Below are positions 12,631 to 34,800 of a stretch of 49,270 nt of DNA, piece by piece. Position numbers and translations under genes: made by a program. A model generated the notes under the pieces. It saw nothing but the letters and a program-made list of their open reading frames with translations, ran no database searches and was not told the origin of the DNA. This DNA is from Candidatus Aenigmatarchaeota archaeon (lineage in GTDB: Archaea; Aenigmatarchaeota; Aenigmatarchaeia; QMZS01). Positions within the stretch are counted from its first letter, which is position 1, and every line of letters starts with the position of its first letter. The DNA lies in the NCBI GenBank assembly GCA_016932615.1, contig JAFGCN010000017.1, forward strand, positions 1 to 49,270. The letters are read 5' to 3'.

Positions 12631-13512
12631 ATGGTGACATTTACAGAACACCTCAGACGAAGTTTCGGAGCTTATATTCGCAATTTCCGGGTAATAGCGC
12701 TTGCGCTCATCATTGCAGCAATTCCGTCGGCAATGCTGGTGGGGCTCGGATTTTACGCAGTGTCTGACTTCTCTTTTGGCGAAGCGGGGCGACTTGCAAA
12801 GGAGACCTACTTTGCTGACAGAGTTTCTATTTGGGAGGACTCACCTTACCCTCCTGAACTGTTTTCCCCCTGGTTTTTTGTGTTCGAGGGCCTGGCGGCC
12901 ATCGTGACATCATATATGCTTGCGGGAACCTATGGGGTATGCCTTTCTGCCATAAAAGGGCGGCCATCTCTTTCTGATTTTTTCAGGTCTCTTCGGGAAA
13001 GTGGGGTTACCCTTGTTTTGTCAAAAATCGCACTTCTTGCAGGGCTTACTGTTTCGCTTGTGCTTTTGTTTCTTACAGGCCTTGTTTTCGCAGCGGTTGC
13101 TAACGCAATTTTCTCGGTTTCTGAAGGGCTGCTTGGCATGCTTTTCGTTCTGTTTTTTATCCTGATAATCGCTCCTATTTTGCCTCTTGTGCTGCTCGTG
13201 TCCCCTTCAGTTGTTTCTGGCAGAAGCGTAGTTGAGGCGTTCAGGGAGAGTTACGCCCTGGGCATTAAGCATTATTGGGGGATTGTTGGGCTTATCCTGG
13301 TGGCTATGGTTCTGATGGTTGTAAGCGGAATTCTGGGTGTTTTAAATGCCCTGGCGGCACTTCTTTTTTCCGGATTTTTTGTTTCACCCCTGATTGCGCT
13401 GCTGCTGTCCTCATACTACCTTGATAAATCAGGCAAAAAACAGGCAAGGGGCTCTGAGATGACGCCACGGAATGCGGCAAAGAAGAAAGTGACACAATCG
13501 AGGAGGAAGTGA
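12631..13512 (+). CDS. Polytopic membrane protein, a paralogue of the preceding gene but without the lysine-rich tail
   Basis: Shares block order with 11184-12593: FGAYIRNFRVIALALII vs FSAYRKNLIPYTFSALLV; VSGRSVVEAFRESYALG vs VSGRGIINAFRESMAVG; YGVCLSAIKGRPSLSDFF vs YGVCLEGLRGRVSVRAFF. Confidence 0.6.
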   Translation: MVTFTEHLRRSFGAYIRNFRVIALALIIAAIPSAMLVGLGFYAVSDFSFGEAGRLAKETYFADRVSIWEDSPYPPELFSPWFFVFEGLAAIVTSYMLAGTYGVCLSAIKGRPSLSDFFRSLRESGVTLVLSKIALLAGLTVSLVLLFLTGLVFAAVANAIFSVSEGLLGMLFVLFFILIIAPILPLVLLVSPSVVSGRSVVEAFRESYALGIKHYWGIVGLILVAMVLMVVSGILGVLNALAALLFSGFFVSPLIALLLSSYYLDKSGKKQARGSEMTPRNAAKKKVTQSRRK

Positions 13513-14762: not shown

Positions 14763-14806
14763 ATTTCTGTTTTTGCCCGGGCATGCGATTCTATTTTATT
14801 TCATAA

Positions 14807-16603
14807 GTGTATTCAGTTATGCCAAAAGTTCTTCTGGGAAAGAACATTATCGACAAGCCCGTCAATTGGGAGATTGAAAAGGAAAAAAACCCGCATCTGC
14901 TCGTTTTGGGGACTTCCGGGTGCGGAAAGACGGAAACCCTGAAGGCGATAATACATGACCTTAACGCCGCAAAGGTGCCTTCACTTATAATTGATTTTCA
15001 CAGCGAGTTTTCCGGGGTCGGGGATAAAGTCCTGAATATGAGGGACTCAGGAATGAACCCTCTTGAGTTTTCAGAGCATGAAACTCCTGAGTCGGTAGTT
15101 TATGAGGTTTCAGGAATCATAAAGAAGATATTCGGGCTTGGCGAGATACAGCAGTCAATAATCAGGCAGGCGCTGAAAAACAGCTACCTTGAAATGGGAA
15201 TTGATGTTCGAAGGGAAGGCCCCGCGGAAAGCTATCCTACCTTTTCAGATGTAAAACAGCATATATACCAGCTTGAAACTCCATCAACAAAGAGAAACAT
15301 AGAGTCTCTCATGAGTAGAATTGACCCTCTTTTTGAGCTTGAGCTTTTCCAGAGCAGCAACCAGATTGCTTTTTCAGACCTCCTGAACGGGACGACTGTA
15401 GTTGACCTGAAGAACTTTCCGACCGAAGAGATAAAGTCGGTTATCGCGGAGTTTTTCCTTGCAAAGCTATCTTATTATATCTACTCGCTTGAAAAGTCAA
15501 AGCAGATGAAGCTTTATGTTGTTGTAGATGAGGCGCACCGCCTTATGTATGAGGGCTCTCCTCTGGACCGTTTTTTGAGGGAGTCCAGAAAGTATGGCGT
15601 TGGAGTGATTCTTGCTTCGCAGCGGCCCACAGACTTTAACGAAACAGTTCTCGCCAATGCGGGCGTGTTATTAAGCTTTCAGTGCACACTGGAGAAGGAT
15701 GCAGTTTTTGTGGGAAAGCAACTGGGCCTTGACTCAAAGAAGGTAAGAAACTTGATTGAGCCAGGAATTGGTTATGTCAAGTTCTCGCGGTCCGATAAGG
15801 CCGAGCGGGTCCATATAACCCGGCTTCAGGACAGGATGACCGAAGAGGAAAAAGCGAAAATGAAGGAGCAGGCGAAATATTCCGGCAAAAAAACCGAGAA
15901 GCGCGAGCCACAAAAAGTGGTTCCCCGGGTTAAGCCAGAAGACCTCTTAATTGAAAACGATTCTCTGGGAAAAGATGGTCCTGATGAGGAAGAGGTTACT
16001 GCTGAGAGAAAGGAGCCGGTTTATGACGAGCGGGAGGAAGAGCCGCAGGAAGATGCCCTGGGCGCAGAGGAAGCCTTGGCGGAGAATGAAGATGAATCCG
16101 AAGACAAGGGGCGGGAGGAGACTTCAGATGATGAAGCGCCGAAAAAAGAAAGAAAAAGGCATCCTGATGACAGTGGCGGCGAAAAAACAAGGGAGGAGCT
16201 CGAAGAAGAATACCGAAAGAAGGAAATCGAGGAGGAACTTGAGCGCAAAAAAAGCGAAGCGGTGGAATCAGATGAACGCCGGGAAAAGCATGTACACCAC
16301 GAGACGCACAGGCAATCAGAATCCGGGGGCGATTTTTCACTTTCAAAGCTATTCTTTTTCGACAACGAATCGATCGGAATCCGCCCAGTTGTAAGGGCTG
16401 CCTTTATCACGCTCATGTTTATTGCGGGTTTTTGGCTTCTGATTATGCTTAACATGAACTGCTGGCTGTTCTTCTGCCTTGCTGTTTTGTGGACTCCCCT
16501 TACTGCTGAGCTTTTCAGGGTGGAGGGACACTCGAAGATAATTTTTGACATTTTCCGGCTTATTTTTACCCTGGTGCTGGTTTACCTTTTTGTAGTCTTT
16601 TAG
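14807..16603 (+). CDS. HerA/DUF87-like P-loop ATPase with an acidic low-complexity linker and a C-terminal double-TM anchor
   Basis: Walker A LVLGTSGCGKTE, Walker B LYVVVDEAHRL and the arginine-finger region ILASQRPTDF match the HerA/VirB4/DUF87 fold. Residues ~390-510 are a D/E-rich linker (EEEVTAERKEPVYDEREEEPQED...). The last ~80 aa have two hydrophobic helices (FITLMFIAGFWLLIML; IFDIFRLIFTLVLVYLFVVF). Confidence 0.75.
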   Translation: MYSVMPKVLLGKNIIDKPVNWEIEKEKNPHLLVLGTSGCGKTETLKAIIHDLNAAKVPSLIIDFHSEFSGVGDKVLNMRDSGMNPLEFSEHETPESVVYEVSGIIKKIFGLGEIQQSIIRQALKNSYLEMGIDVRREGPAESYPTFSDVKQHIYQLETPSTKRNIESLMSRIDPLFELELFQSSNQIAFSDLLNGTTVVDLKNFPTEEIKSVIAEFFLAKLSYYIYSLEKSKQMKLYVVVDEAHRLMYEGSPLDRFLRESRKYGVGVILASQRPTDFNETVLANAGVLLSFQCTLEKDAVFVGKQLGLDSKKVRNLIEPGIGYVKFSRSDKAERVHITRLQDRMTEEEKAKMKEQAKYSGKKTEKREPQKVVPRVKPEDLLIENDSLGKDGPDEEEVTAERKEPVYDEREEEPQEDALGAEEALAENEDESEDKGREETSDDEAPKKERKRHPDDSGGEKTREELEEEYRKKEIEEELERKKSEAVESDERREKHVHHETHRQSESGGDFSLSKLFFFDNESIGIRPVVRAAFITLMFIAGFWLLIMLNMNCWLFFCLAVLWTPLTAELFRVEGHSKIIFDIFRLIFTLVLVYLFVVF

Positions 16604-19696: not shown

Positions 19697-21580
19697 ATGA
19701 GACTCCTCCTGATTCACTCGGACAAATTGGATTTCAAGGCGAATAAAAAGGCCTTAAAAGACGCTGAGGTGCCTAAGGAAACCGAGGGGCACTTCAAGGA
19801 CTGCCTGGTGGTTTTCTGGACTGCTGAAGACACAGACACCAACGCGGACAATATCGCGGAAAACGCCTTTAACGAGATAAAGTCAGTTGCAGGGCAGATA
19901 AACGAGAAAAACATCATTCTTTACCCTTACGTTCACCTCCTTTTTGGCGCCAAGCCCGCAGGAAAAGACCTGGCGCTTGAAATCGAGGGAAAGCTTGAGG
20001 AGAAGCTAAAAGCAGAGTTCGAGGTCCACAAGGCGCCGTTTGGTTATTACAAGAGCTTTGGAATCGAGTGCAAGGGACACCCTCTTTCGGAGCTTAGCCG
20101 GGTGATTGGAGGCGAGAAAAAGGAGATTGTCTCCGAAGCCCTGAAAAAGGAGGAAACGCTGAAATCAAAATTCTATGTTTTCGAGCCGGGCGGAAATGAG
20201 ACTGAAATCCGGATTGAGGACGGAAAGCTTATTGGCTTTAACTTTTCAAAATTCCCGAAGTTCGAAAAGCTCGTAAAGTATGAGCTTGCAAAGAACCGGG
20301 CAGTTGACGTCGAACCGCCCCACATAAAGCTGATGAAGAAGCTTGAATTGGCCGATTACGAGCCGGCCTCAGACCCTGGAAACATGAGGTATTACCCGAA
20401 AGGAAGGATGATAAAGGCGCTTCTTGAGGAATGGGTCACCAAAAATATGCTTGAGTACGGAGCGATGGAGGTCGAGACTCCTTTGATGTATGACTTAAAC
20501 CACCCGACGCTTAAGAAATACCTGAACCGCTTTCCCGCAAGGCAGTACCAGATTGACACTCCAAACAAGAAAGTGTTTTTGAGGTTTGCCGCGTGCTTTG
20601 GCCAGTTCTTGATGGCGCACGACGCAAACATCTCCTACAGGAATCTGCCTTTACGGCTGTATGAGCTTACAAGGTATAGCTTCCGGGTCGAGCAGAGGGG
20701 AGAGCTTGCGGGCCTCAGGCGTCTTCGGGCGTTTACGATGCCTGACTGCCACGCAATGTGCGCTGATATGGAAGAGTCAAAGGTGGAGATGATGAAGCGC
20801 TTTGACTTGGCTAAGAAAGTGCAGGAGGGAATCGGGCTTACAATTGAAAATGACTTCGAGTTTGCGCTTCGCCTGGTCAGAAAGTTCTATGACGAGAACA
20901 AGGAGTTTGTCCACAAGCTCATAGACAAGATGGGTAAGCCCGTTCTTGTGGAGATTTGGGAGGACCAGTTCTTCTACTTTGTGCTTAAGCACGAATGGAA
21001 CTTTGTCGATGCGCTTGACAAGGCGGCAACCCTTACGACCGACCAGTTCGATGTAGAAAACTCGAAGACGTACGACATAAACTACGTGAAAAGCGACGGC
21101 ACTGAGGAAAAGCCGGTAATTCTTCACCTGTCACCGAGCGGCGCAATTGAGAGGGTGCTTTACGCAGTCCTTGAAAAATGCGCCATGGAGCAGGCGAAAG
21201 GAAAAAACCCCATTTTGCCTTTGTGGCTTTCGCCCACACAGGTAAGAATCTGCCCGGTGTCCGACGAGTTTGTGGGGCCGGCGGTTGAATTTTCCGAGAA
21301 GCTCGAGAAAAACGGCATAAGATCTGACGTGGATGACAGGATGGAGTCGATTCCAAAGAAAGTGAGAAGCGCAGAAATCGACTGGGTTCCCCTGATAATT
21401 GTTTTCGGAGAGAAGGAGAAGTCCGGCGAGCTTGTGGTGCGCTTCAGGGAAACCGGAAAAACCGAGAAGATGTCGTTCGACGGGCTTGTCAAGTACATGA
21501 ATGAGAACACGAATGGGATGCCTTTCAGGCCGCTTCCCGTGCCAAAGCTTCTTACCAGGCAGGTCAAGTTTGTCGGATGA
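19697..21580 (+). CDS. thrS: Threonyl-tRNA synthetase, archaeal type with N-terminal editing domain
   Basis: The N-terminal MRLLLIHSD...VVFWTAEDTD editing domain is archaea-specific. Class II motif 2, FRVEQRGELAGLRRLRAFTMPDCHAMC (Zn-binding C/H), and motif 3 GAIERVLYAVLE are present, followed by an anticodon-binding C-terminus. Confidence 0.9.
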   Translation: MRLLLIHSDKLDFKANKKALKDAEVPKETEGHFKDCLVVFWTAEDTDTNADNIAENAFNEIKSVAGQINEKNIILYPYVHLLFGAKPAGKDLALEIEGKLEEKLKAEFEVHKAPFGYYKSFGIECKGHPLSELSRVIGGEKKEIVSEALKKEETLKSKFYVFEPGGNETEIRIEDGKLIGFNFSKFPKFEKLVKYELAKNRAVDVEPPHIKLMKKLELADYEPASDPGNMRYYPKGRMIKALLEEWVTKNMLEYGAMEVETPLMYDLNHPTLKKYLNRFPARQYQIDTPNKKVFLRFAACFGQFLMAHDANISYRNLPLRLYELTRYSFRVEQRGELAGLRRLRAFTMPDCHAMCADMEESKVEMMKRFDLAKKVQEGIGLTIENDFEFALRLVRKFYDENKEFVHKLIDKMGKPVLVEIWEDQFFYFVLKHEWNFVDALDKAATLTTDQFDVENSKTYDINYVKSDGTEEKPVILHLSPSGAIERVLYAVLEKCAMEQAKGKNPILPLWLSPTQVRICPVSDEFVGPAVEFSEKLEKNGIRSDVDDRMESIPKKVRSAEIDWVPLIIVFGEKEKSGELVVRFRETGKTEKMSFDGLVKYMNENTNGMPFRPLPVPKLLTRQVKFVG

Positions 21581-22191
21581 TTATGCCTTATCTGGAGAGC
21601 ATTCTCTTGGGGGTTTCTCTAGCTGCAATTCCCGGCCCGGTATTTTTTGAGGTAATGCGGAGAACTTTAGCCCGGGGCTTTGGGAAGACATCCCTGCTGA
21701 TTCTTGGCGTCTTCTTGGCTGATTTTTTGCTTCTGGTCTTGACCTTTTATGGCCTAAGCCAGTTTCTTGCAATTGGCTGGCTAAGTGTAGCAATGTATCT
21801 AGCAGGAGGGCTTCTCCTCATATTCATAGGGGTTAGCTCGATGCGAATAAGTGAAAAAGAAATCAAACAGGCGTCGAAGAAGAAAGCTTCGGAAACCAAC
21901 TCTGCCTTTATGGGTTTTGGCCTTGCTTTTACAAGCCCACTGTCGATTGCCGTTTGGATTTCCCTGGGTGGATCCTACCTTGCCCAGTACGCAGTGCGCT
22001 CAGTTGCGCTTACCCATATGCTTATGCTTGCCTTTGGAGTCATGGTTTTCTTTTTTGGCCTTGCTTTTGCGGTTCACACGTTCAGGGGCAAGATTGAGTC
22101 CAAATACATTTTGGCAACTTCAAAACTGTTTGGCCTGGTTCTGATATGCTATGGGGTTTATGCTTTGTCCGGCTTGGCAAATTTTGCCTGA
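21577..22191 (+). CDS. LysE/RhtB-family amino-acid exporter
   Basis: Six TM helices. AIPGPVFFEVM is the LysE-type PGP motif. 204 aa. Overlaps the thrS stop by 4 nt. Confidence 0.65.
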   Translation: MIMPYLESILLGVSLAAIPGPVFFEVMRRTLARGFGKTSLLILGVFLADFLLLVLTFYGLSQFLAIGWLSVAMYLAGGLLLIFIGVSSMRISEKEIKQASKKKASETNSAFMGFGLAFTSPLSIAVWISLGGSYLAQYAVRSVALTHMLMLAFGVMVFFFGLAFAVHTFRGKIESKYILATSKLFGLVLICYGVYALSGLANFA

Positions 22192-22265
22192 CTGCAGGCA
22201 TTTTATTTTTTGGCAGAGCTTCTTTTCAGCCCAAGTGCTGCAAAAAGCGCGAGAAGATAGCAGGA

Positions 22266-22667
22266 TTATCTTTTTTCTAAAACCCGCTTGAGGTTTTGCA
22301 AAATGTCCTCTGTAAATGGGCATTCCAGTTCACCTTCGTTCATCCATTCAAAATAGGTCATTTCAGTTCTACGTTCATCCAATTCTTTGTAAGTGTACCT
22401 CACGTGATAATTTCCCTCCCGGTCGGATAGCGTGAATATTTTTCCTGGCTCGTATTCTATAACTTTGTAGAAATTCCACTTGCCTTCTTTTCCGCGATTT
22501 TTGTAGTTTGTGCCGATTTTGGGCGGGTAATCTTCGGCAACTTCTTCCTGAATGGAAGGAATCCAGAGGTGCGTGTTGCACGGGTCTGTCGTAAAATCGA
22601 AAACTTCTTCAATTGGTTTATCAATCCTGACTGTGATGCTGTTTTCTTTCATGCTTAATAATGCCAA
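22266..22667 (-). CDS. SRPBCC (START/Bet v1/polyketide cyclase-like) domain protein
   Basis: About 130 aa with ITVRIDKPIEEVFDFTTDP...W.P and a C-terminal helix, typical of the SRPBCC ligand-binding fold. Visibly lower GC than neighbouring genes. Confidence 0.45.
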   Translation of the reverse strand: MALLSMKENSITVRIDKPIEEVFDFTTDPCNTHLWIPSIQEEVAEDYPPKIGTNYKNRGKEGKWNFYKVIEYEPGKIFTLSDREGNYHVRYTYKELDERRTEMTYFEWMNEGELECPFTEDILQNLKRVLEKR

Positions 22668-22696
22668 TATTCTCTAATAGGGCGGCTACTGATGAT

Positions 22697-24664
22697 TCAT
22701 ACTTCTTTAATCCCAAGTTCCCTTAGGTACTTGAATGTTTTGTCATAGAACTCTGGAAGTCTGGTGGCGTCATTAAGGTCTCCTTCAGGTATAAATATCA
22801 CTAGGCCTTGTCTTGCCCGCGTGAGCAGTACTCGATAAGTATTTTTTAGATAATTTTGGTTTTCCTTTTCTCTCATAGTTTGCCAACCTTTTCCTCTGAA
22901 AAGTTTATAGGCCCAACCCCCATCTTCAAATCTGAGGTCAGCGTCCCATGCGACACACACCCAATCAAGCTCTAGACCTTGTATGTCAAATTCTGTAGCC
23001 ACATCTTCAAGATAGAATGATGATCTAACATCTTCTTTAGGATTTAAGAACCAATTTTTGGCATTAATCTTTACCTGGACGCATAACCCATAGGGTTTTA
23101 GTCTATATGCTCCAGAGCTAGCGACGAGACCTATTCTTTCTGAACCTCTTGCTTTTTGTTTCAGCCAGACTTTTGCTTTATTGATGTCCCTCGTAACCAC
23201 AATTGGGTATTTACCCTCTAACTGAGGGACTATATCTATTGCAGATTCTTTATCGCAGTCTAAAAGCGATTTGATGAACTTGGATACATTTTCACTTCTG
23301 AATGAGCGAATATCTGTGCTTAGGTGTAAATCCTCAATAGAATGATATATTAATTCACCAAGTAGCTCTTGGAGGTTAGCCCCTTGAGTATATTCTACTT
23401 CAGATATCTCTGTTGAAAGATAGATTTGCCAATGGGCGAACTTTTTTCTCAATGCTGTGAACCATTCAGGCAAACCGGCCTCCCCCGTATTTATCTCTTG
23501 ACCTCCACCAATCAAGCATATAATAACTGCCCAGTCTTTGTGGCGATCCATTATGCTGATTAGAAACTCTGGTTCAGACATGTCAAAATTTAGGACTCCT
23601 TTTTTCTTCTGCATAAATGCCGAGGTTTGTTTGTGGGTCCATGCTCTTTGGGCTTCATCGAAGATTACAACCTTCTCAAGGGGAGGGGTCTTAACACTTA
23701 AGGCATCATCTCTAAAGTGATGAATATTTTGAATGAATGCTTTGGATTTCTTTAAAGCTTTTGTCTTTGTAACTTTCTCTTGGGAAGTTTTAACCTCGTT
23801 TCTAGCTAACGCCTCTTGTAATACGTCTACTAGGGGGCCATTTCCGGATAAAAAGACCGCATGCTCTTCTTCAATGAATTTGTGCCTTTCATTTGCTAGA
23901 TTCAATCCAGCAAGAGTTTTTCCTGCCCCCGGAACTCCAGTAATAAAACAAATCGCTTTAATTTTTTCTTGTTTTGCTTTATCAATTATTTGATTTATGG
24001 CTTCTGCAGTTCTGCTTAGATTAATCTTTCCAGAATCCGAACGGGATATTTCTTCAACACTATGCCCCTGGTATAAGGCCTGTGCGGCTTCGATAATTGT
24101 GGGTGTTGGCATATATACTGAATTTTCCCAGTCGTAAGGGTTAATTTCTCTTTCCTTGTGTTTGGTAAGGACCTCAGCTATGGTTTTGGAGAGATTTGAG
24201 GAGTTACAATAGAGGGGTTGAAAGATGCCATCTTCATATACCTTCAACTCAGCGTGTTTCTCAGGAGCATTAGTTGCTACTAGAATGGGCACTAATTTAA
24301 TATTATGGCTCCCTTCTTGAAAATTTTTTAGGTCTACAGCATAGTCCACCACTTGATCTATTGCACTTTTTGGATAATCTGAACTGCCTACCTTGAATTC
24401 TAGAACAAAAACCATTCCCGATACAATGAGTATTACGTCTACCCTGCGACCCATTCTTGGGATTGAATACTCGAAAAGAATATGGCCTTTTTCGAAGTTC
24501 GCCAGTTGTTCTTTAAGTAGGATTATTTCCTGCAACCAAGCGTTTCTTTGTTGCTCTTCTAATCTAAATTCATGATTTTCAGTTAAGTTTCCTAAAATTG
24601 TCTGAGAATCATCTGTTAAGAATTCACTCAAGGGTCTTGAATAGTAAGAGCGTTTCATAATCAT
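22697..24664 (-). CDS. DUF2075-type nuclease-ATPase (N-terminal PD-(D/E)xK/NERD-like domain fused to an SF1-like P-loop NTPase); defence-associated family
   Basis: The N-terminal GRRVDVILIVSGMVFVLEFK gives a D...E-x-K nuclease motif. Walker A FITGVPGAGKT, Walker B VVIFDEAQRAW and C-terminal VLLTRARQGLVIF (SF1 motif VI-like). Markedly AT-richer than the flanking genes. Confidence 0.75.
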   Translation of the reverse strand: MIMKRSYYSRPLSEFLTDDSQTILGNLTENHEFRLEEQQRNAWLQEIILLKEQLANFEKGHILFEYSIPRMGRRVDVILIVSGMVFVLEFKVGSSDYPKSAIDQVVDYAVDLKNFQEGSHNIKLVPILVATNAPEKHAELKVYEDGIFQPLYCNSSNLSKTIAEVLTKHKEREINPYDWENSVYMPTPTIIEAAQALYQGHSVEEISRSDSGKINLSRTAEAINQIIDKAKQEKIKAICFITGVPGAGKTLAGLNLANERHKFIEEEHAVFLSGNGPLVDVLQEALARNEVKTSQEKVTKTKALKKSKAFIQNIHHFRDDALSVKTPPLEKVVIFDEAQRAWTHKQTSAFMQKKKGVLNFDMSEPEFLISIMDRHKDWAVIICLIGGGQEINTGEAGLPEWFTALRKKFAHWQIYLSTEISEVEYTQGANLQELLGELIYHSIEDLHLSTDIRSFRSENVSKFIKSLLDCDKESAIDIVPQLEGKYPIVVTRDINKAKVWLKQKARGSERIGLVASSGAYRLKPYGLCVQVKINAKNWFLNPKEDVRSSFYLEDVATEFDIQGLELDWVCVAWDADLRFEDGGWAYKLFRGKGWQTMREKENQNYLKNTYRVLLTRARQGLVIFIPEGDLNDATRLPEFYDKTFKYLRELGIKEV

Positions 24665-24739
24665 AGTTTAAGATAAATGCACTCAGGCACATACTAAGAG
24701 ATATGCTTCCTATAAATACCTCCTCTCCCAATACTAATA

Positions 24740-25486
24740 ATGGTGTGGGAATACGTCTTGGTTGTAATTCTTCTTGCTATTATTGCTTCAGGCCTGCGGC
24801 TTCTTTACCAGTACGAGAGGGGAGTCGTTTTCACGCTTGGAAGGTACAGCCACGTAAAGGACCCTGGGCTTGTCTGGATAGTTCCGGTCTTCCAGACGAT
24901 GAGAAAGATGGACATACGGATAAAGACGTCAGACATTCCGCGCCAGGAAGTCATAACCAAAGATAACATTCCAATTCTTGCAAACACTGTCGTTTACTTC
25001 AAGGTCGAAAAGCCAGCTGATGCAGTCATTAAGATTGAGGACTTCGAGTACGCAGTCCGGCAGTACACCCAGGCGGCCTTAAGGGACGTAGTCGGAAACA
25101 GCGAGCTTGATTTTGTCCTGACGGAAAGGGAAAAGATCGCCTCAAGCATCAAGAAGATTGTCGACAGCGAGACTTCCGGCTGGGGGGTCGACATAGAATC
25201 GATCAAGATTCAGGAGATAGAGCTTCCGGCAGAGATGAAGCGCGCGATGGCAAAGCAGGCAGAGGCCGAGAGGGAAAGGCGCGCGGTAATAATAGCCGCA
25301 GAGGGCGAACTGAAGGCATCCGAGAACCTCAGGAAGGCATCCGAAAACCTGTCCAAAAGCCCGGCGGCAATTCACTTGAGAACTCTTCAGACGATAAGGG
25401 ACATCGCCTCAGACCCTTCGGAAAAAATCGTCCTCTTCCTTCCTTCGGACGCAGGCGACGTGTTTAAACGGGCTTTCAAAAAATAA
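24740..25486 (+). CDS. SPFH/band-7 (stomatin/prohibitin) family membrane protein
   Basis: N-terminal TM followed by YERGVVFTLGRY...IPRQEVITKDNIPILANTVVYFKV and a C-terminal coiled coil with AEAERER, typical of the stomatin-like fold. A TATA-like cctataaatacc lies about 27 nt upstream. Confidence 0.85.
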   Translation: MVWEYVLVVILLAIIASGLRLLYQYERGVVFTLGRYSHVKDPGLVWIVPVFQTMRKMDIRIKTSDIPRQEVITKDNIPILANTVVYFKVEKPADAVIKIEDFEYAVRQYTQAALRDVVGNSELDFVLTEREKIASSIKKIVDSETSGWGVDIESIKIQEIELPAEMKRAMAKQAEAERERRAVIIAAEGELKASENLRKASENLSKSPAAIHLRTLQTIRDIASDPSEKIVLFLPSDAGDVFKRAFKK

Positions 25487-25498
25487 GGTGGCGTAAAA

Positions 25499-26164
25499 AT
25501 GCTTGAAAAAAAGATAAGGTATCTTCAGATTGCGTTTAACGGCGGGCTTTCTTCTGTCGAGGAAATACTTCCGCAGATTCCTGCAAATGAGCGGATTCTT
25601 ATCGAGGCGGGAACTCCATTCATAAAGAAGGAGGGCTTTCGGGGGATAAGGAGAATTTCAGAGCTTTGGAAAGGCATGGTTGTTGCAGACCTCAAGACAA
25701 TGGACGGGGCAGTCGGTGAAGTTGAGCTTGCATATCGCGCCGGAGCGACTGCCGCAACGGTTCTTGGAAGCGCTTCAAAGGAAACGCTTGACCTGTTCAT
25801 AAAAAAGTGCAGCGAATTCCGGATGGTTTCGATGATTGACCTTATCGGGGTCGAAGAGCCGCTAAAAATTCTGTTGGGCTTGAAGGTGCCCCCGTCGGTT
25901 GTGGTGCTTCACAGGGGCCGCGACGAGGAGACGACAAGGGGAAAAGTGATTAAGTACAGGCATATAAACAAGATTAAAAGCAAGTTCGATGTCCTGATTT
26001 CTGCGGCGGGAGGAGTCGACCTCAAGGAGGCGAGCAGCGCGATTTTTAACGGGGCAAACATAGTCGTGGTAAACCTGGTAAGCGAGGACGACCCCTGGAC
26101 GGGGATAGGCCTGGTAGAAGACATACCGAAGGTGGCGGAGGAGTTTTTGGAGACAATAGACTAA
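25499..26164 (+). CDS. Orotidine-5'-phosphate decarboxylase superfamily protein, most similar to 3-hexulose-6-phosphate synthase / KGPDC
   Basis: LQIAFNGG...LIEAGTPFIKKEG...VVADLKTMDGA...AGATAATVLG matches the HPS/KGPDC signature (DhiEvGTPl...aDlKt.D.G). Confidence 0.55.
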   Translation: MLEKKIRYLQIAFNGGLSSVEEILPQIPANERILIEAGTPFIKKEGFRGIRRISELWKGMVVADLKTMDGAVGEVELAYRAGATAATVLGSASKETLDLFIKKCSEFRMVSMIDLIGVEEPLKILLGLKVPPSVVVLHRGRDEETTRGKVIKYRHINKIKSKFDVLISAAGGVDLKEASSAIFNGANIVVVNLVSEDDPWTGIGLVEDIPKVAEEFLETID

Positions 26165-26721
26165 AATTTTCTCCACTTCCCGAATGTTGTTGTTTCATCG
26201 AGCATGTTGTTTTTTTCTTTTGAGAGAAAGCCGATTTTCATGAAGCTCTCGCAGCGCATCTTTCCCTGGATGTAGAGTGACTTGTATTTTCCTGTCGAGT
26301 ATATGCCGGACATCACGCCTTCGAGTGCCAGCAGCTTTTTCAGCCCCTCAAGCTGCTCAACGCCGCCGGAAACTTTTATGAGCCGTTTTTGCGAGGAGAC
26401 TGAACTTTTGCCTTCAAAAAACCCGCGAAGAAAAGCTCTCCTCTTTTCCGAAGTGTCCAGCGCTTCAGTGGGCAGTTTTTCCTTGTCAAAGGGAAGCGAA
26501 AGGCCGATTTTTTTCAAAAGGCCTTCGACCTCTTCTTTTTGGCTAAGCGACACCTCAATTGCTTTTCCCTTTTTTATCCGGGCTTTTCCAAATTCAATAA
26601 GGCGGGAAAAGACAATTTCCGAAAATTCTTCCCGCTTTGTCTGGAATTCTATCCGGTGGCCTTTGCCCAGCTTAACCGAGCCGGAAGCGTACAGGAGCCC
26701 CAAAAGCTCAAAATCTCGCAT
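26161..26721 (-). CDS. Protein with two degenerate LAGLIDADG-like motifs (start at the internal MRDFELLG; the track ORF extends to 26784)
   Basis: ELLGLLYASGSVKL and RRAFLRGFFEGKSSVS sit about 100 aa apart, the spacing of a two-motif LAGLIDADG fold. The first motif lacks the catalytic acidic residue. Confidence 0.3.
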   Translation of the reverse strand: MRDFELLGLLYASGSVKLGKGHRIEFQTKREEFSEIVFSRLIEFGKARIKKGKAIEVSLSQKEEVEGLLKKIGLSLPFDKEKLPTEALDTSEKRRAFLRGFFEGKSSVSSQKRLIKVSGGVEQLEGLKKLLALEGVMSGIYSTGKYKSLYIQGKMRCESFMKIGFLSKEKNNMLDETTTFGKWRKF

Positions 26722-26742
26722 AATATATAAAAGAATCCAAAA

Positions 26743-27702
26743 TTGTGTATGGGGGAAGCAGAGTATGTTAAGGAAATCAAGCATGGCGCAGTTGGTTTCA
26801 AGCTTCCCACTTTGATTGACCTTAATCCTAAAACCGAAAACAGCGTTACCAACAGGGTAGAGACCCCGACAAGCAGGAATTATGTTTCAAGAGACGAAGA
26901 AACAGGAGCAGTAAAGCCCAACAAGCAGAAAGACGCAAGAGAGCTGGCCGGGGAAATTTACCGCAAGATTGGAGATCTTCACGCGAAAGGCAGGAAGCTC
27001 GATGAAATATATGATTTACTTGAGAAGGAGGGCTATGAGTATGCTGCAATCGAGCCGGTTTTCATCGATTATCTTGAGAAGTGCCGCGGTTCTCTGGGGC
27101 AGCAAGGACAGCAACAGCAAAGGCCGCCCGCCGCAAGCCCTGCGCCAGGCACTGCAGGAATGGTTGCTCCAAGGCCGCAGGGAAATCCGTCTTTCCAGGG
27201 AGAGCACGAGCTTGAGCTTGTTGAGATTCACGCAAACCCGCCTGAAATGCCCAAAGCAGAAGAAATGCCAAGAGGCGACAGAAGAATGGAATCCGTTGGC
27301 CAGCCAGGTGCAGAACAGTCGCCTCCCGCAGAGGAGGATGGAATCGGGCGAAGCACTGGGGACTTTGCGCCTCTTTTCGTAAAGGTCGGAAAATACCGGG
27401 AAACGCTCGAGCATCTAAACGACCTTGAAAATTACCTAAAAGGCATGACACGGCTCCTGGAGCTCGTTTCTGAGCTTGAACAGGTGAGGGTCATGAATAT
27501 CTCTGCAATCGAGAAACTGCAGAAAAAGGCGATTGCAACCTCTTCGAAGCTTTCTTCAGGGCTTCTGAAGCCAAGAGGCATGCAGCTGGAAGGCACGAGG
27601 GACAGCGAGGTTGAGCTTACAAAGCTGGGGGATGTCATTTCCGACCTGAGCAAGGAACTAACAATCCTGAAAAAGGAAGTGGATAAGCTGGGGCAGGTAT
27701 AG
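26743..27702 (+). CDS. Hypothetical protein with a Q/P-rich linker and a C-terminal coiled coil
   Basis: 319-aa ORF. Middle region QQGQQQQRPPAASPAPG. The C-terminal ~110 aa have a heptad-like pattern (LELVSELEQVRVMNISAIEKLQKK...LTILKKEVDKLGQ). Confidence 0.4.
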   Translation: MCMGEAEYVKEIKHGAVGFKLPTLIDLNPKTENSVTNRVETPTSRNYVSRDEETGAVKPNKQKDARELAGEIYRKIGDLHAKGRKLDEIYDLLEKEGYEYAAIEPVFIDYLEKCRGSLGQQGQQQQRPPAASPAPGTAGMVAPRPQGNPSFQGEHELELVEIHANPPEMPKAEEMPRGDRRMESVGQPGAEQSPPAEEDGIGRSTGDFAPLFVKVGKYRETLEHLNDLENYLKGMTRLLELVSELEQVRVMNISAIEKLQKKAIATSSKLSSGLLKPRGMQLEGTRDSEVELTKLGDVISDLSKELTILKKEVDKLGQV

Positions 27703-28847: not shown

Positions 28848-31800
28848 ATGTCACTGCCTTGGAAAAAGGGGTCGAGCGCTTCATTTAAATTGAGTCTATG
28901 CCTGATAACGCTTATTTTGCTCGCCTTTTGCGTTAATGCGGACACTTATTCGGCGTTTTGCACCACAGGCACCGAAATTTATACAGATAAGCCGGATTAC
29001 GAGCCGGGAGAGACTGTGAATATTACCGGGCACGGCTTTCTGCCAAAGGCACCATTAAATATTACGATTACCCGGCCGGACCGTGTTACCGACTCCTGCG
29101 GCTCTTCTTCCTGCTATTTTAGGTTCTTGAATGGCACCCTGATATCCGACAGGGAAGGGTCTTTTTTTGATTATCTTTACCTTCTTAACGGCATAACCGG
29201 AAATTACACCGTCCGGGTGACTGACGGCAAAAATTATGCGGAATTCTGCTTCATGGATGGCCGGAATATTACAAACGTGACTCTTGACGGCTTAAGCAGC
29301 GTTTCAGTTCTTCCAAGCGCTTCCATTACTGCTGCGGTAACCCTTGTTTCGACATCCGGCAGCTACTGGCGCTCCACAATGTACCAGATTGAGGGTGAAA
29401 GCGCCGTGTGCGTGGATACGCCAGACCACACTGAGTCAGGAACTCACACTTATACAGAGCCCTTTTCAATAACAGCCCCTTCTGCGCCCGGCGTTTATGA
29501 TGCCAGTTTTATCGCTTATCTTAACAATGACTGTACAGGAAGCAGCCCAAGCAATACCTATACTTTAATCGACGGCATAACAGTCACATCTGACGCCGTA
29601 TGCGGCGATGGGGAGATTGAAGCGCCCGAATCCTGCGATGATGCTAATACCGACGATGCTGACGGCTGCTCGTCTTCCTGCCAGGTGGAATCCGGCTGGT
29701 CCTGCGCTGGTGAGCCAAGCTCTTGCGCAGAAGTGTGCGGAAATGGCATAATAACTGCAACCGAGGAGTGTGATGATGCCAACACTGATGACTCCGATGG
29801 ATGCGGCTCATCCTGCGCCATTGAAGCCGGTTGGTCCTGCACAGGTGAGCCGAGTGAGTGCCTGGTGTATAATCCTGCCCTTCCAAGCTCTTGCGGAATA
29901 GATATTGCGCTTATTATAGACAATTCCGGGAGCATTGACAACTCGGAGCTCACGGCAATGAAAAACGCGTTTAAGGGCTTTGTTGACGCTTTCCTGCCGG
30001 ATACCCCCACCCACATAGCGGTTGTCAAGTTCAATACTGATGGAGACCTTGTTTTGGACTATAGCGGAGACGCAACCGAAATAAAGAATGCAATTGATTC
30101 GGTGTCGACAAGCGATGGCTACACCAACTGGGACGATGGGCTAAAGGAGGCGCAGGATGAGTTTGACAACTCGCCAAAGCCGGACTTGTACGTTTTTGCT
30201 TCTGACGGGCAGCCGAACCGCCATGGCGACCCGGCAGTGGATGGAGAGCCCGAGTCTCTTGCTGCAGCTATAGAAAGGGCAAACCAGTTAAAGCTGTCTG
30301 GCGTAAGGATAATCACTCTTGGAATTGGCGTTACAGGTGACGGCGCTTCCAACCTTAAAGCAATCTCAAGCGAGGATGCCTACTATTCCTCAGGATTTGA
30401 CACCCTTGCGGATGACTTGGCTGACCTTGCCGATGAGCTTTGCGGAGGCACGATAACAGTAAGGAAGCTGGTTGACGGAAGCCCTGCAGGCGGCTGGGAA
30501 TTTTCGGCAAGCGTAACCGATGGAGAATCAATCCCGGCAACTTCCACAACCGGTGAAGATGGCTTCATAGACCCGGTTTTTGACATAAACATAACAGACA
30601 CGGTTTCAACTGTGGACATAACAGAAACTCCCAAGCAGGGATATAATTTTGTCAGCGCAGCTTGCAAAGACCAGGATGAAAATCCGGTGGGAACGCCTGG
30701 CGTTGGAACGGTTACTGGAATAGTGATTGGTCCAAATGATGCGGTTTACTGTGAATTTAACAACAGCGGGGTTTTGTGCAGCGAGCACTCCAATTCAGAG
30801 TCCTGTGAGGAAGATGAGGGCTGCAAGTGGTGCCCTTCCTGCAACAACCCTTTCAGGAATGTTTATTATCCTCTCGGAAACTGCATAAGCGAGTCTGCTG
30901 AATGCGCCTGGAATGGCTGCTCGGTCGAATGCGGAGCCGAGTGCGATACTGAGACTCCATGCCTTCCAAAGCAGGATGAGAATTACTGCTACTATGGCGG
31001 AGAATGCAATTCCTCATGCTTATGCGGTTACTTGTCCCAGTTCTGCCCACCACCTGGGACTGAAGATAATGGAACCTGCTACTATGGCGAGCAGTCCTGC
31101 ACCGAAAACGGCTGCCAGGTTACAAGCGCAGAAATGTCTTGCCCGGGGCTTGTTTGCGATGAGATTCTTGGCCCTGTGGACATGATTGGGCCTGTAACCA
31201 GTAATTTCACTGCTGACCCGATTCCACCTCAATTCCTTCCAGGGCCACTTCCAGCAAAGTGGCTGGTAAACATCAGCGCCCTTGAAACAGAGGACTGCTC
31301 GAATGTTTCTGCTGCGGAATATTTTGTTTCAAAGAATGTTTGCTATTATCCTCCGGACACTGAGAGGGGAACGCCTATGGGTGCGCTTGACGGCTCTTTT
31401 GGCGGGCTTGTGGAATTGGTAAACACAACTCACACATTTAATGAGGAAAACGACGGGCTTTACTGCTTTTCCATAAGGGGCAAAAACGACGCTGGCTACT
31501 GGGGCAATATATACTGCGACTGCATAAATGTGGATACCCAGGTTCCGCTTGACCCGACAAATGTTACGCTTACGCCTTATATATGCAACCAGAACAGGAC
31601 TTTGAACGCAAAGGTCTGTGACGCAGAGTCGGATGTTGTGGGCGGCGAATATTATTTTGACATATTTACGGACTGGATTCCTGGCGGGCAGGGCCTTTTG
31701 ATGTATGTGCAGAGCCAATATGTACTTGAAGAGCCCGAAGGAAGATATTTTTGCGCTAACCTGAATGCCACTATAGACGTCACAAATGTGTCTGATGGCT

Positions 31801-34800
31801 GCCACTGGGTGCGGCTTCACGGAGTGGATGATGCTGGAAACTGGGGAAAGCCAAGCCCCAACTACCAGCACAAGTTTATACTTGATAAGACCCCTCCAAG
31901 GACAAACAAGATGATTAATGGAACGGTTATTCCTTGCGATTTGGCAGATGACGGCGAGGGCAACGCGCTTGACGCAGGGTGCTTTTACACCGTGCAGGGA
32001 ACCGAGATTCTTCTCGAAGGGTTTGATGACCTTGGGTCCCAGAACGAATCCTGCCGGGCGGAATCCCTGACAACCTGGTACAGAATCAGATGGAGAAATA
32101 ACTGGACAAGCCCTTGGGAGGACTGGTCAATCTGGACTCTTTACAGGGAGCCGATTGTCCTGAGAGAAGACTCAATACACGAGATAGAATATTATTCTGA
32201 AGACTCGTGTGGAAACGCGGAAACTCACCACTACGAGCTTGACATAGTTGACACTGCGGAGCCGAAAACCGAAAAAACAATTGAAGGAGTAAGGCTTGAA
32301 GGCGACGGCCAGACTTTTGACTGGTGGATTACCCAGGAGTCGACAATTATCCTTAACTGTACAGATACTGACCCTCACCCTGTCAGCGGAGTAACTCTTT
32401 ACTGGAGGTATAAGGTGGATGGTGGGAACTTTACCGGCTGGAATGAGGTGTTTGGAGGATATGATGCTTTCAGCTATCCTGAAGACTCGGTTCACACACT
32501 GGAATATTACTGCACGGATATTCTTGGAAACAGGGAAGAAACGCAGGTTGAGGTCGACAAGGTGGACACAACCCCGCCTGAAACTAACAAGACTTATGGC
32601 TGGCCATTGTTCGATACTGATGGCTCATACCCCAAGTGGATAAACTCCAGCACTCCCGTCACATTGGAATCAACTGACGGCGGCGAAATATGCGCAGTCG
32701 GAGTCGATAAGACTTACTGGATGAACACGATAGTTAACGATTATATGTGCGAGGAAGCGCCTCTAAACTGCCAGCCAGTCCATGACTTCGAGGATGAGGG
32801 CTGGACAGAATATACTGCCCCGTTCTACAAGACTGAAACCTCATGCCACCTTATAGAATACTGGTCTGAAGACAGGCTTGGAAACCGCGAGAGAATAAAA
32901 GCCCAGTGCGTATTCGTGGATAACGAGCCGCCGGTAAGCGTGAAAGGCATTCAGGGGCCTCAGATAGAAACTGACTGCAGGGAGATTGGTGAGGGTAACT
33001 ACTCGGATGGCTGCTATTATGTGACAACTGAAACTGAGGTCACCTTGGAATGCCGGGACTCTCTACCACACCCGGTCGGAAACGTTGATTTATTCTACAA
33101 AATCGACTGGAAGAATGCTACAGGAGACACCTGGATTTCCGGAACCTGGATAAAAAGCACAAACCCGGTTACATTTTCGTACGAAAATGATTCTTTCCAC
33201 CTGCTCGAGTGGTACTGCATAGACGCCCTTGGAAATGCCGAAGAAGTTAGAACCGAGCTTGACATGGTTGATTCAAGCCCGCCTGAGGTAGTAAAGCAAG
33301 TGAACGGCGCCCTAATGGGAAACAGCACTATTGATTGGTACCTCAATGGCACTTCAAACATCACACTCAACTGCACGGATGTCATGCCCCACCCTGTCGG
33401 CGACGTTACGCTTAACTGGACTTTATACTGGAGCGAGGAGTGTATCAGGCCGGACTGGGAGGAGCTTGCAAGTGGAGTCACCGATGGCTACAAGTCATTT
33501 ACAAGCTTCAGGGATTCCTGCCACAAGCTGGTTTACTGGTGCTCTGACGCCCTTGAAAACACGGGCCCTCTTACAGAAGAAATTGACGCTGTTGACACCA
33601 AGCCGCCGGTTTCATGGAAGGATATTAACGGCACGTACGTAAACTGCACAGAGGGAGAGGTTTGCGACAAGTGGATTACCCAGAATACACTTCTTGAGCT
33701 TTACTGCGAAGACCAGGCCCCTCACCCCGTGGGCGGCGTTAAGATTTATTACAGGTACTTTGTGGATGATGTCCTCTTCCAGGACTGGACAGAATACACA
33801 AGGGCGATAAATTATGGCGAGGACTCGGTTCACCGGCTTGAGTGGTATTGCGTCGATGCACTTGGCAATAAGGAAGAGACCCAGGTTGAAATTGATAAGG
33901 TGGACACAACCCCACCTGAAATGAACAAGATTATCGGAGAGCCGAAGATTGAATGCACTGAAGGTGAGGGCTGCGATTACTGGCTTCGCGACCACTACAC
34001 AAATATCACCCTCGACCCTGTTGATGGAGGAGACGTTTGCGCAATAGACCGGGTGCAGTGCGATTACTGGTACCTTGTAAACAACACGACCTGGGAAGGG
34101 CCGTTTGAATACAGGGGGCCGATAGTGTTTACTGAGGACTGCCTTCACGAGCTCCACATTTCCTGCCGTGATGCCTTAGGCAATGTAGTTAACGATACTG
34201 AACTTTTCAGGGTTGACTCACAGCCGCCGGTTACTGTCAAGAGCTTTATCGGCCCGAAGTATCCTGCCTCCGAAAAGGACGAGGAGCAGTTTGAGCTTAC
34301 TGAAGAGCAGGCAGAAAACTTTTGGATGAGGGACCATGTGACTGTAGTTGAGCTTAACGCGACAGACACAATAGAGCCATGTGCTGTCGGCATAAGAGAG
34401 TTGTGGTACCGGGTTGGAAAGGACATGGACGGAGACGAAATGGTCGATGGATTGGAGATGGGCAACTGGAGCGTCGTTACAGGAAGCTATGTAAACTTCA
34501 CGGTTAATGAGGACTGCCTTCACAAAATTGAGTGGTACTCAGTGGATATGCTTGGAAACACTGAGGAAAAGCGGTCCCAATACCATAGGGTCGATTCAAC
34601 GCCGCCGGTTACAACAAAGACTTTCGATGGCCCTACCTGGGACGACACAGACAAGACAAATCCCTACTGGGAAAATTACTGGGTTTCAAATGAAACTGAT
34701 ATAATACTTTTGGCAGTCGATGAGGCAAGCCCTTGCGCTGTTGGCGTGGACTACATACACTACGAACTCTGGTGGGACTCTGACGGTGACGGAGAAGTCG

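What the first reader, a model, noticed from the sequence alone, without database searches (positions are those of the whole stretch)
22266..24664. Low-GC islet carrying a DUF2075 nuclease-ATPase (defence-type gene) and an SRPBCC protein
The 655-aa protein fuses a PD-(D/E)xK-like N-terminal domain (VDVIL...VLEFK) to a P-loop NTPase with Walker A/B and an SF1-like motif VI (VLLTRARQGLVIF). This is the architecture of the DUF2075 proteins that cluster in prokaryotic defence islands. The gene and its small SRPBCC neighbour are visibly AT-richer than the flanking thrS/LysE and SPFH genes. This is consistent with horizontal acquisition and a possible anti-virus or anti-plasmid role.
Basis: partly seen in the sequence, partly recalled or inferred. 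Interest (0 to 1): 0.65.

Follow-up and report, generated by a model that had tools for sequence, protein, structure and literature searches.

The report
Archaeal Nhi-like nuclease-helicase defence gene
This is a horizontally acquired single-gene antiviral nuclease–helicase of the already described "Nhi-like" family, sitting alone among housekeeping genes of a DPANN archaeon; it is a new member of a known kind, and the small neighbouring SRPBCC gene is not part of it.

Summary
ORFs lie at 22697–24664(−) (annotated start 24658, 653 aa) and 22266–22667(−) (likely start 22652, 128 aa). The large protein has an N-terminal PD-(D/E)xK nuclease domain and a PF09848 (ex-DUF2075) SF1 ATPase. It matches PADLOC model PDC-S41 end to end (E 9e-297). 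It is collinear (32 % id, E 2e-53) with the validated Bacillus cereus "Nhi-like" anti-phage protein. An 88 %-identical orthologue of that protein also hits PDC-S41 (E 1e-114), so both belong to one family. Nuclease and ATPase catalytic residues stay invariant or ≥90 % conserved down to about 31–35 % identity. The gene is a strong compositional outlier (GC3 0.343 against 0.519 ± 0.061; codon-bias z ≈ 13). It is also AT-richer than its flanks in 10 of 10 other genomes. Contexts are variable and often mobile or defence-type, with no conserved partner. It is absent from all 80 related SPFH loci. The SRPBCC gene is not a partner (0 of 13 homologue loci) and its codon usage is only mildly atypical. 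There is no defence island here; this is a solo insertion. The family is known, so interest is low to moderate.

The parts
22697..24658 (-). Nhi-like (PADLOC PDC-S41) nuclease-helicase gene, 653 aa. The ORF extends to an upstream in-frame ATG at 24664 (655 aa).
   Evidence: ORF. PDC-S41 at E 9.2e-297, covering 3-654 of 657 model positions. PF09848 at E 2.1e-86. 32% identity and E 2e-53 to the verified B. cereus Nhi-like protein. E 2e-75 over residues 26-632 to its 88%-identical orthologue.
24149..24658 (-). N-terminal PD-(D/E)xK (restriction-endonuclease-fold) nuclease domain, about aa 1-170. Catalytic candidates are E63 (24470-24472) and D74...E87-x-K89 (24392-24439), with a QxxxY motif at Q102-Y106 (24341-24355).
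24029..24130 (-). Conserved linker WENSVYMPTPTIIEAAQALYQGHSVEEISRSDSG (aa 177-210) between the nuclease and ATPase domains. Its role is unknown.
   Evidence: A run of invariant columns (W177, Y182, P184-P186, I188-Q193, L195, Y196, G198, H199) in 40 homologues. It is retained as 'YEPSPSMLEAA' in the Bacillus Nhi-like protein. AF2 confidence is low here, with 10-residue blocks at 53-66.
22787..23959 (-). PF09848 (SLFN-g3 / ex-DUF2075) SF1-type ATPase/helicase domain. Motifs: Walker A 23915-23938, Walker B 23645-23662, GGGQEIN 23489-23509, QGLELD 22964-22981, motif VI 22805-22837.
   Evidence: Pfam. The motifs are invariant across the divergent family. Foldseek top hits are the SLFN11/SLFN14 helicase domains, RecD and Upf1. 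Coordinates checked.
24665..24739 (.). 75-nt divergent intergenic region between the Nhi-like gene and the SPFH gene, holding one TATA-like element (TATTTATA / TATAAATA, 24711-24718). It is a possible bidirectional archaeal promoter (inferred only).
   Evidence: Read directly from the sequence. No experimental or comparative support.
22266..22652 (-). SRPBCC (Polyketide_cyc2) gene, 128 aa, 44 nt downstream on the same strand. It lies inside the low-GC tract but is NOT part of the system.
   Evidence: Pfam E 1.6e-8. No homologue in any of 13 homologue loci held as DNA, and none among the called genes of the P0002 contig. Its own homologues (about 100, 47-74% identity; the few labelled ones are mostly DPANN) sit in unrelated contexts. 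GC3 z = -0.9. No oligo-T tract in the 44-nt spacer, so read-through transcription is possible (inference).
22192..22265 (.). Convergent 74-nt spacer between LysE and SRPBCC, with oligo-T tracts on both strands (T6 after LysE, T5 after SRPBCC). It is the likely archaeal termination zone and the left edge of the low-GC tract.
   Evidence: Sequence. GC drop begins at about 22100. The termination role is inferred.

Best explanation
The 653-aa gene encodes a stand-alone Nhi-like defence enzyme. An N-terminal metal-dependent PD-(D/E)xK nuclease is fused through a highly conserved linker to an SF1 (Upf1/RecD/Schlafen-type) ATPase/helicase. The most likely mechanism is that the ATPase domain loads on and translocates along invader DNA. 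It probably recognises features absent from the resting host chromosome, such as free ends, replication intermediates or foreign methylation. The nuclease domain then degrades that DNA and blocks virus or plasmid replication, without any partner protein. The gene was acquired laterally, most plausibly from the low-GC DPANN gene pool. It inserted as a single gene at a synteny breakpoint upstream of the conserved SPFH-OMPdecase-like pair in an Aenigmarchaeota genome. Shown here: family membership, intact catalytic motifs, fold, foreign composition, variable context and absence of a partner. Shown in the literature for relatives only: anti-phage activity, selective degradation of phage DNA in vitro, and escape through loss of a phage methylase. 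Inferred: activity in this archaeon, the target, polarity, and how self is discriminated from non-self.
Against: There are no experimental data for this clade or for any archaeal member, and identity to the verified protein is only about 31-32%. Here the gene stands alone among housekeeping genes, with no other defence system, CRISPR array, integrase or flanking repeat. At least 58% identity between Bacteria and Archaea is unusually high conservation for a defence protein. Three or four homologue loci are also purely housekeeping (L004, L007, L008). A strict occupied-versus-empty-site comparison could not be obtained. I could not verify the sequence of PsNhi-like, so its relationship to this clade rests on the authors' naming.
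Confidence: 0.75

Rival explanations
1. Abortive-infection or toxic effector. The enzyme is kept inactive and, once triggered by infection (for example by a phage methylase or methylated DNA), degrades DNA indiscriminately, host DNA included. This would stop growth of the infected cell and not selectively clear the invader.
For: Bari et al. note that Nhi slows cell growth and may cause collateral host DNA damage. Nhi-like shares the methylase-loss escape route with Dazbog, and Dazbog was shown to be abortive. PsNhi-like is active in vitro only at 1 uM, which suggests it needs activation.
Against: [quoted passage not shown] Nhi is described as degrading phage-specific replication intermediates. 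Nothing in the sequence separates the two modes.
Confidence: 0.1
2. Housekeeping or repair nuclease-helicase (a Dna2/RecB/AddAB-like role in end resection or replication-fork processing) that only looks like a defence gene.
For: Very strong sequence conservation. RNase HII or RNase H genes lie within 0.1-6 kb in 4 of 14 homologue loci, and MCM and FEN1 lie nearby in L001. Structural similarity to RecD and Upf1. The context in this window is housekeeping.
Against: Patchy distribution: absent from 80 of 80 related loci. The neighbourhood differs in every genome. Codon usage is foreign. The gene tree places the window copy closer to a Nanoarchaeota copy (72%) than to the other Aenigmarchaeota copy (65%). 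The gene occurs on plasmids and in a transposon/R-M cluster. A family member is a verified anti-phage gene.
Confidence: 0.07
3. A cargo gene serving a mobile element and not the host, for example inter-element competition, plasmid or transposon maintenance, or exclusion of rival elements. In this reading it was left behind here as a remnant of an element that has since decayed.
For: Homologues lie on Persicobacter plasmids (56% identity) and on 44 Bacillus plasmids, the listed ones mostly 0.4-0.9 Mb and typed non-mobilizable. Others sit next to IS110, TnpV, TnpB, integrases and Bro-N. The gene is AT-rich relative to every host examined.
Against: This window has no element hallmarks: no integrase, repeats, tRNA target or rep gene. 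All catalytic residues are intact, so it is not a decaying remnant. Anti-MGE and anti-virus roles are not mutually exclusive with the best explanation.
Confidence: 0.08

Closest known systems
Nhi-like (Millman et al. 2022, system SG141; verified protein from Bacillus cereus FSL H8-0482, IMG gene 2729017301), which corresponds to the PADLOC-DB v2 candidate model PDC-S41
   Same: Same two-domain, single-polypeptide architecture and collinear motifs throughout: FEY...RxD...ExK, QxxxY, PxPxxxEAA linker, GxPGAGKT, LSGNGPLVDVLQ, IFDEAQRAW, LIGxGQEI, TEFxxQGLELD, YRVxLTRxRxG. BLASTP gives E 2e-53 against the verified protein and 2e-75 against its orthologue. Both hit the PDC-S41 model full length.
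   Different: Only about 31-32% identical to the verified protein. The window protein belongs to a separate, tightly conserved clade of about 653 aa (62-75% identity among the top 120 hits; 58-85% among members of labelled or context-inferred taxonomy from Archaea and Bacteria) that has not itself been tested. The host is a DPANN archaeon, not a Firmicute.
Nhi (SERP2475, Staphylococcus epidermidis; Bari et al. 2022)
   Same: N-terminal PD-(D/E)xK nuclease plus a C-terminal SF1 helicase overlapping DUF2075. It is a single-gene system. The protein has nuclease and helicase activities and blocks phage DNA accumulation.
   Different: No meaningful sequence similarity outside the P-loop region. The PADLOC Nhi model scores 25.6 bits over residues 224-357, against 984 bits for PDC-S41. 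[quoted passage not shown]
Schlafen group III proteins (human SLFN11, SLFN14, SLFN5, SLFN13)
   Different: About 10-13% sequence identity and TM-score about 0.3 for the whole chain. No Pfam AlbA_2/SLFN-core match in the N-terminal domain. Schlafen nucleases are reported to act on tRNA/rRNA (own knowledge), whereas Nhi and Nhi-like act on DNA.
Other nuclease-helicase defence proteins: Hna, Hachiman HamAB, type I R-M HsdR, Shedu SduA
   Different: Those motors are SF2, or are absent in Shedu. The domain order differs (Hna has a C-terminal nuclease). Several are multi-subunit. There are no HsdM/HsdS or HamA-type partners here.

Membership tests
Nhi-like / PADLOC PDC-S41 | Full-length match to the family profile | tested here: met
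   PDC-S41 at E 9.2e-297, 983.8 bits, residues 3-654 on model positions 1-652 of 657.
Nhi-like / PADLOC PDC-S41 | Homology to the experimentally verified Nhi-like protein (B. cereus FSL H8-0482) | tested here: met
   32% identity and E 2e-53 over the 399 aa of sequence held in the supplement. 31% identity and E 2e-75 over residues 26-632 to an 88%-identical orthologue. That orthologue hits PDC-S41 at E 1.4e-114.
Nhi-like / PADLOC PDC-S41 | N-terminal PD-(D/E)xK nuclease domain with intact catalytic residues | tested here: met
   [not shown]
Nhi-like / PADLOC PDC-S41 | C-terminal PF09848 (DUF2075) ATPase with Walker A and B | tested here: met
   PF09848 at E 2.1e-86. GVPGAGKT and FDEAQ conserved.
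Nhi-like / PADLOC PDC-S41 | Single-gene system with no obligate partner | tested here: met
   No gene recurs next to the homologue in 14 loci.
Nhi-like / PADLOC PDC-S41 | Confers protection against viruses | not testable with these tools
   Only literature on relatives is available.
Nhi sensu stricto (SERP2475) | Sequence membership in the Nhi profile | tested here: not met
   PADLOC Nhi model scores 25.6 bits at E 1e-6, limited to the P-loop region 224-357.
Schlafen group III | SLFN-g3 helicase domain | tested here: met
   PF09848. SLFN11 and SLFN14 are the top Foldseek hits.
Schlafen group III | N-terminal Schlafen core (AlbA_2) nuclease domain | tested here: inconclusive
   [not shown]
NERD (PF08378) nucleases | Match to the NERD profile | tested here: not met
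   No NERD hit for the whole protein at E <= 0.01, nor for residues 1-185 at E <= 1.
Cas4 / RecB-family nucleases | RecB-type motifs (D, ExK, QxxxY) plus, for Cas4, an Fe-S cysteine cluster | tested here: inconclusive
   D...ExK and QxxxY are present. The Cas4_II model is only at E 0.014. There are no invariant cysteines in the N-terminal domain.
Type I R-M HsdR | HSDR_N nuclease + ResIII + Helicase_C, with HsdM and HsdS partners | tested here: not met
   ResIII at E 7e-7 only. No Helicase_C or HSDR_N in this protein. No methylase or specificity gene nearby.

The most novel reading that the evidence does not exclude
The tightly conserved clade of about 653 aa to which this gene belongs is not simply another Nhi-like. 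It shows 58-66% identity between Archaea and Bacteria, has thousands of members, is always AT-richer than its host, and is only about 31% identical to the verified Bacillus protein. It could be a distinct, cross-domain translocating restriction enzyme that depends on DNA modification (type IV-like). In that reading the invariant linker (aa 177-210) or the N-terminal helical region (invariant W41) senses foreign DNA methylation. It would then be one of the few defence enzymes working essentially unchanged in DPANN archaea, Thaumarchaeota, Firmicutes and Bacteroidota.
Probability: 0.2. Interest if true: 0.5.

Novelty: new member of a known kind. Interest (0 to 1): 0.27.

Why it matters
The result extends a recently described single-protein antiviral nuclease–helicase family to a DPANN archaeon, a group with small genomes and few known defences. 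It also shows that PADLOC's untested "candidate" PDC-S41 is the same family as the verified Nhi-like system. In addition, it documents an unusually conserved subclade shared between Archaea and Bacteria. That subclade would be a convenient target for biochemistry, for example on how one polypeptide tells foreign DNA from self DNA, and for comparison with eukaryotic Schlafen helicases. For annotating this window, the outcome is ordinary: standard defence finders would flag the gene.

Tried and rejected
1. Empty-site test. A genome-contig scan with ThrRS found only relatives at 60 % identity or less, with no shared gene order. A metagenome scan with SPFH found 80 loci at 70–87 % identity. The SPFH–OMPdecase-like pair is conserved in them, but nothing upstream is shared with the window. 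The gene's absence is shown; a clean occupied-versus-empty junction is not.

2. Mobility hallmarks. There are no flanking direct or inverted repeats beyond chance-length matches, no nearby tRNA and no integrase.

3. SRPBCC as a partner gene: rejected. It has no homologue in any of 13 homologue loci, and its own homologues sit in unrelated contexts.

4. NERD or any other Pfam nuclease model for the N-terminal domain: no match.

5. NCBIfam: no model matches.

6. Sequence search of the PDB, with the single sequence and with an N-terminal profile: nothing significant.

7. Literature search for the string "PDC-S41": no papers.

9. Defence island in the window. A PADLOC scan of the 33 other ORFs gave only HerA/DndH-type hits (the HerA-like ORF, by its Pfam domains) and generic SspA/DndA, HTH and pVip hits, which the summary output did not assign to ORFs. 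There is no CRISPR array.

10. Rfam: no RNA family in the islet.

11. The full sequence of the verified Nhi-like protein could not be retrieved because the supplement text is cut at 399 of 611 aa. An 88 %-identical plasmid orthologue was used for the C-terminal half.
Full report
**Observation.** NCBI's own call for this contig, a 49,270-nt MAG contig labelled Candidatus Aenigmarchaeota, starts the large protein two codons in (653 aa, start 24658). It starts the small one at the ATG at 22652 (128 aa). Residue numbers below follow the 653-aa protein. All quoted motifs exist, and I verified their coordinates.

The region is AT-rich. 200-nt windows read 0.34–0.46 GC from about 22100 to 24800, against 0.46–0.56 on either side. 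At synonymous sites only the large gene is an outlier:
- Its GC3 is 0.343, against 0.519 ± 0.061 for 32 other ORFs (z = −2.9), the lowest in the window.
- Its Karlin codon bias is 0.478, against a null of 0.179 ± 0.023 matched for length and amino-acid composition (z = 12.9).
- The SRPBCC gene has GC3 0.465 (z = −0.9) and only a mild bias excess (z = 2.9). Its low GC comes from codon positions 1 and 2.

**What the large protein is.**
- Pfam places residues 236–626 of the 655-aa ORF in PF09848 (E 2.1e-86). This family was formerly DUF2075 and is now named "Schlafen group 3 DNA/RNA helicase domain".
- PADLOC-DB matches the whole protein to PDC-S41 (E 9.2e-297, positions 1–652 of 657). The Nhi and AbiO models match only weakly, around the P-loop. 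To my knowledge "PDC" marks untested phage-defence candidates; the name appears in no paper in the library.
- A 40-sequence alignment of homologues (62–75 % identity) shows invariant E63, D74, E87-x-K89 and Q102-x-x-D-Y106 in the N-terminal part. This is a RecB-type PD-(D/E)xK signature.
- The same alignment shows invariant GVPGAGKT (Walker A), FDEAQ (Walker B), GGGQEIN, QGLELD and YRVLLTRARQG.
- The pattern survives a stricter test on 55 sequences at 31–54 % identity. E63, D74, E87, Walker A, D334, R609, R614 and R616 stay invariant. K89, Q102, Y106 and E335 are at least 90 % conserved.
- An AlphaFold2 model of the full protein is confident (pLDDT 82, pTM 0.76). Foldseek places its motor nearest the helicase domains of human SLFN11 and SLFN14, then RecD and Upf1. 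That identifies it as an SF1B-type fold, with no close solved homologue.
- No Pfam nuclease model, including NERD, matches this domain.

**Link to a verified defence system.** Millman et al. [quoted passage not shown] They named it for its architectural identity with Nhi of Staphylococcus epidermidis despite the lack of sequence identity.
- Their supplement lists the verified protein (Bacillus cereus FSL H8-0482, IMG gene 2729017301, 611 aa) and gives its first 399 residues.
- The window protein aligns with it collinearly (32 % identity, E 2e-53), through the nuclease motifs, the linker and the first half of the ATPase.
- An 88 %-identical orthologue on B. cereus plasmid pC1L1 extends the alignment to residues 26–632 (31 %, E 2e-75).
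- That orthologue itself hits PDC-S41 full length (E 1.4e-114).
- PDC-S41 and Nhi-like are therefore one family, and the window protein is a member. It is not a member of Nhi proper.

**What is known for relatives.**
- Nhi has nuclease and helicase activities and prevents phage DNA accumulation. [quoted passage not shown] This suggests that methylated phage DNA sensitises the phage to the system.
- A purified homologue, PsNhi-like, was among the broadest defenders in E. coli, with more than 20-fold defence against 7 of 11 phages. It degraded T7, SECphi17 and SPO1 DNA but not E. coli chromosomal or plasmid DNA, and only at 1 µM. The authors split it into domains at F163/E164, matching the boundary seen here.
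- I could not check the PsNhi-like sequence.

**Evolutionary behaviour.**
- The family is large. The exhaustive search found 5139 clusters (50 % identity) at E ≤ 1e-3 and 1151 at E ≤ 1e-30. The two-domain architecture persists down to about 36 % identity.
- The window protein lies in a tight clade of about 653 aa. The top 120 hits are 62–75 % identical to it. Labelled members come from Nano-, Woese- and Aenigmarchaeota, Nitrosopelagicus, Anaerocolumna and Veillonellaceae.
- In a neighbour-joining tree it falls in a subclade whose labelled members are all DPANN. It is 72 % identical to a Nanoarchaeota copy but 65 % to the other Aenigmarchaeota copy. Archaeal–bacterial pairs are 58–66 % identical.
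- By contrast, ThrRS from this contig is only 57–60 % identical to its best Aenigmatarchaeota relatives and about 50 % to Thaumarchaeota.
- In 10 of 10 other loci the gene is AT-richer than its flanks, by 0.017–0.144 in GC fraction.
- Together with the codon-usage anomaly, this supports lateral acquisition, most plausibly from lower-GC DPANN lineages.

**Context.** Fourteen homologue neighbourhoods share no partner gene.
- Many contain mobile or defence genes:
  - integrase, GmrSD, rve, Endonuc_Holl and SRA/McrA (L005);
  - N6/N4 methylase, integrase and Mrr (L001);
  - DUF1016 and Bro-N (L006), and Bro-N again (L093);
  - MNT-type nucleotidyltransferases and MazE (L002);
  - Fic (the P0002 contig);
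  - DUF2283/DUF4258 (L090);
  - IS110 (L009);
  - HNH, MazG-like and TnpB (Bacillus plasmid);
- Others are solo insertions among housekeeping genes (L004, L007, L008).
- In this window the gene is of the solo type. Its neighbours are ThrRS, a LysE exporter, SPFH/stomatin and an OMP-decarboxylase-fold protein. Further out lie POR, a β-CASP RNase, a HerA-like ATPase, FEN1, GlmS and EF-1α.
- There is no CRISPR array, integrase, nearby tRNA or flanking repeat.
- Eighty metagenomic loci carry SPFH at 70–87 % identity. Of these, 72 keep the SPFH–OMPdecase-like pair, and none has the Nhi-like, SRPBCC or LysE genes. Nothing upstream of SPFH is shared with the window.
- The gene therefore lies at a synteny breakpoint and is lineage-specific, although a clean empty site was not recovered.

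**The SRPBCC gene.** It lies 44 nt downstream on the same strand, with no oligo-T tract between the two genes, so it may be transcribed by read-through (inference). It is not part of the system.
- No homologue occurs in any of 13 Nhi-like loci held as DNA.
- Its roughly 100 homologues form a small family (47–74 % identity) whose few taxon-labelled members are mostly DPANN.
- The two closest homologues sit after a Suf operon in one case, and among detoxification, PIN-VapB and integrase genes in the other.

**Mechanism.** I consider it most likely (about 0.75) that the protein is a stand-alone anti-virus/anti-plasmid enzyme. Its SF1 motor would engage invader DNA and its PD-(D/E)xK domain would degrade that DNA.
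- Shown here: membership, intact active sites, fold, foreign origin, and the absence of a partner.
- Shown only for relatives: defence activity and selective DNA degradation.
- Inferred: activity in this archaeon, 5'→3' polarity (from the SF1B-like fold), and the self/non-self cue. The cue could be free ends or replication intermediates as proposed for Nhi, or foreign methylation as suggested for Nhi-like.
- Rivals: abortive infection with host-DNA degradation (0.10), a housekeeping repair role (0.07), and a function serving a mobile element (0.08).

**Novelty and score.** The architecture, the family and its defence role are published. Defence-annotation tools already carry models that capture this gene, and DefenseFinder-based censuses of archaeal genomes, including DPANN, already list Nhi. 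This is a new, archaeal member of a known kind.

Three points of mild interest remain:
- PDC-S41 and Nhi-like are equivalent.
- The conserved clade is shared across the two domains.
- The family's most conserved segment is an unexplained linker (aa 177–210), which the model predicts with low confidence.

Interest is about 0.27.

Noticed in passing
[not shown]
   Followed up: yes
window 24029-24130 (aa 177-210 of the Nhi-like protein): The most conserved stretch of the whole family is the linker 'WENSxYxPTPTIIEAAQALYxGHSVxEISRSDSG' between the nuclease and ATPase domains. It is also retained in the Bacillus verified-type protein. AF2 confidence is low here and no function is known.
   Followed up: partly
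L001 3513-4193; L005 8039-9028; P0002 contig 147-845; L007 9493-9849: RNase HII (three times) or an RNase H/RVT_3 gene (once) lies 0.1-6 kb from the Nhi-like homologue in 4 of 14 loci. This could be coincidence, an insertion hotspot or a functional link.
   Followed up: no
window 13509-16603: A HerA-like ATPase (14807-16603) gives PADLOC DndH/HerA/mad8 hits down to E 3.5e-36 and Pfam DUF87/HerA_C hits. It sits directly after a beta-CASP/RMMBL nuclease gene (13509-14762), not after a NurA gene. This is an unusual pairing that might be repair-related or a defence module.
   Followed up: partly
window 24740-26164 and L095-L174: The SPFH/stomatin gene and the following OMP-decarboxylase-fold (HPS-like) gene form a tightly conserved pair, adjacent in 72 of 80 related metagenomic loci, while everything upstream varies.
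   Followed up: partly
window 22266-22652; L175, L176: The 128-aa SRPBCC protein belongs to a small family of about 100 clusters at 47-74% identity. The few members with a taxon label are Nanoarchaeota, unclassified archaea and one 'bacterium'. The family has variable contexts and unknown function.
   Followed up: partly
window 28848-38471 and 2141-6013: Two giant ORFs (3207 aa with VWA and DUF4215 domains; 1290 aa with VWA_2 and DUF2341) are probably surface or adhesion proteins, as expected for an episymbiotic DPANN archaeon.
   Followed up: no
window 43276-43390 (+) and 42147-42232 (+): Rfam finds a 115-nt tRNA, probably intron-containing, at 43276-43390 that ARAGORN did not report. ARAGORN reports an 86-nt tRNA-Asp at 42147-42232 that Rfam did not report at gathering threshold.
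   Followed up: no
[not shown]
   Followed up: no
window 24711-24718: A single TATA-like element (TATTTATA / TATAAATA) lies between the divergent Nhi-like and SPFH genes. It sits about 47 nt upstream of the first ATG of the former and about 22 nt upstream of the ATG of the latter, so it may be a bidirectional archaeal promoter with a leaderless SPFH transcript (inference).
   Followed up: no
window 21577-21580; 26743-26784; 915-1675: ThrRS and LysE overlap by 4 nt (ATGA). The LAGLIDADG-like ORF (26161-26784, minus strand) overlaps the start of the next ORF by 42 nt. Two small ORFs at 915-1675 have the next-lowest GC3 in the window (0.41).
   Followed up: no
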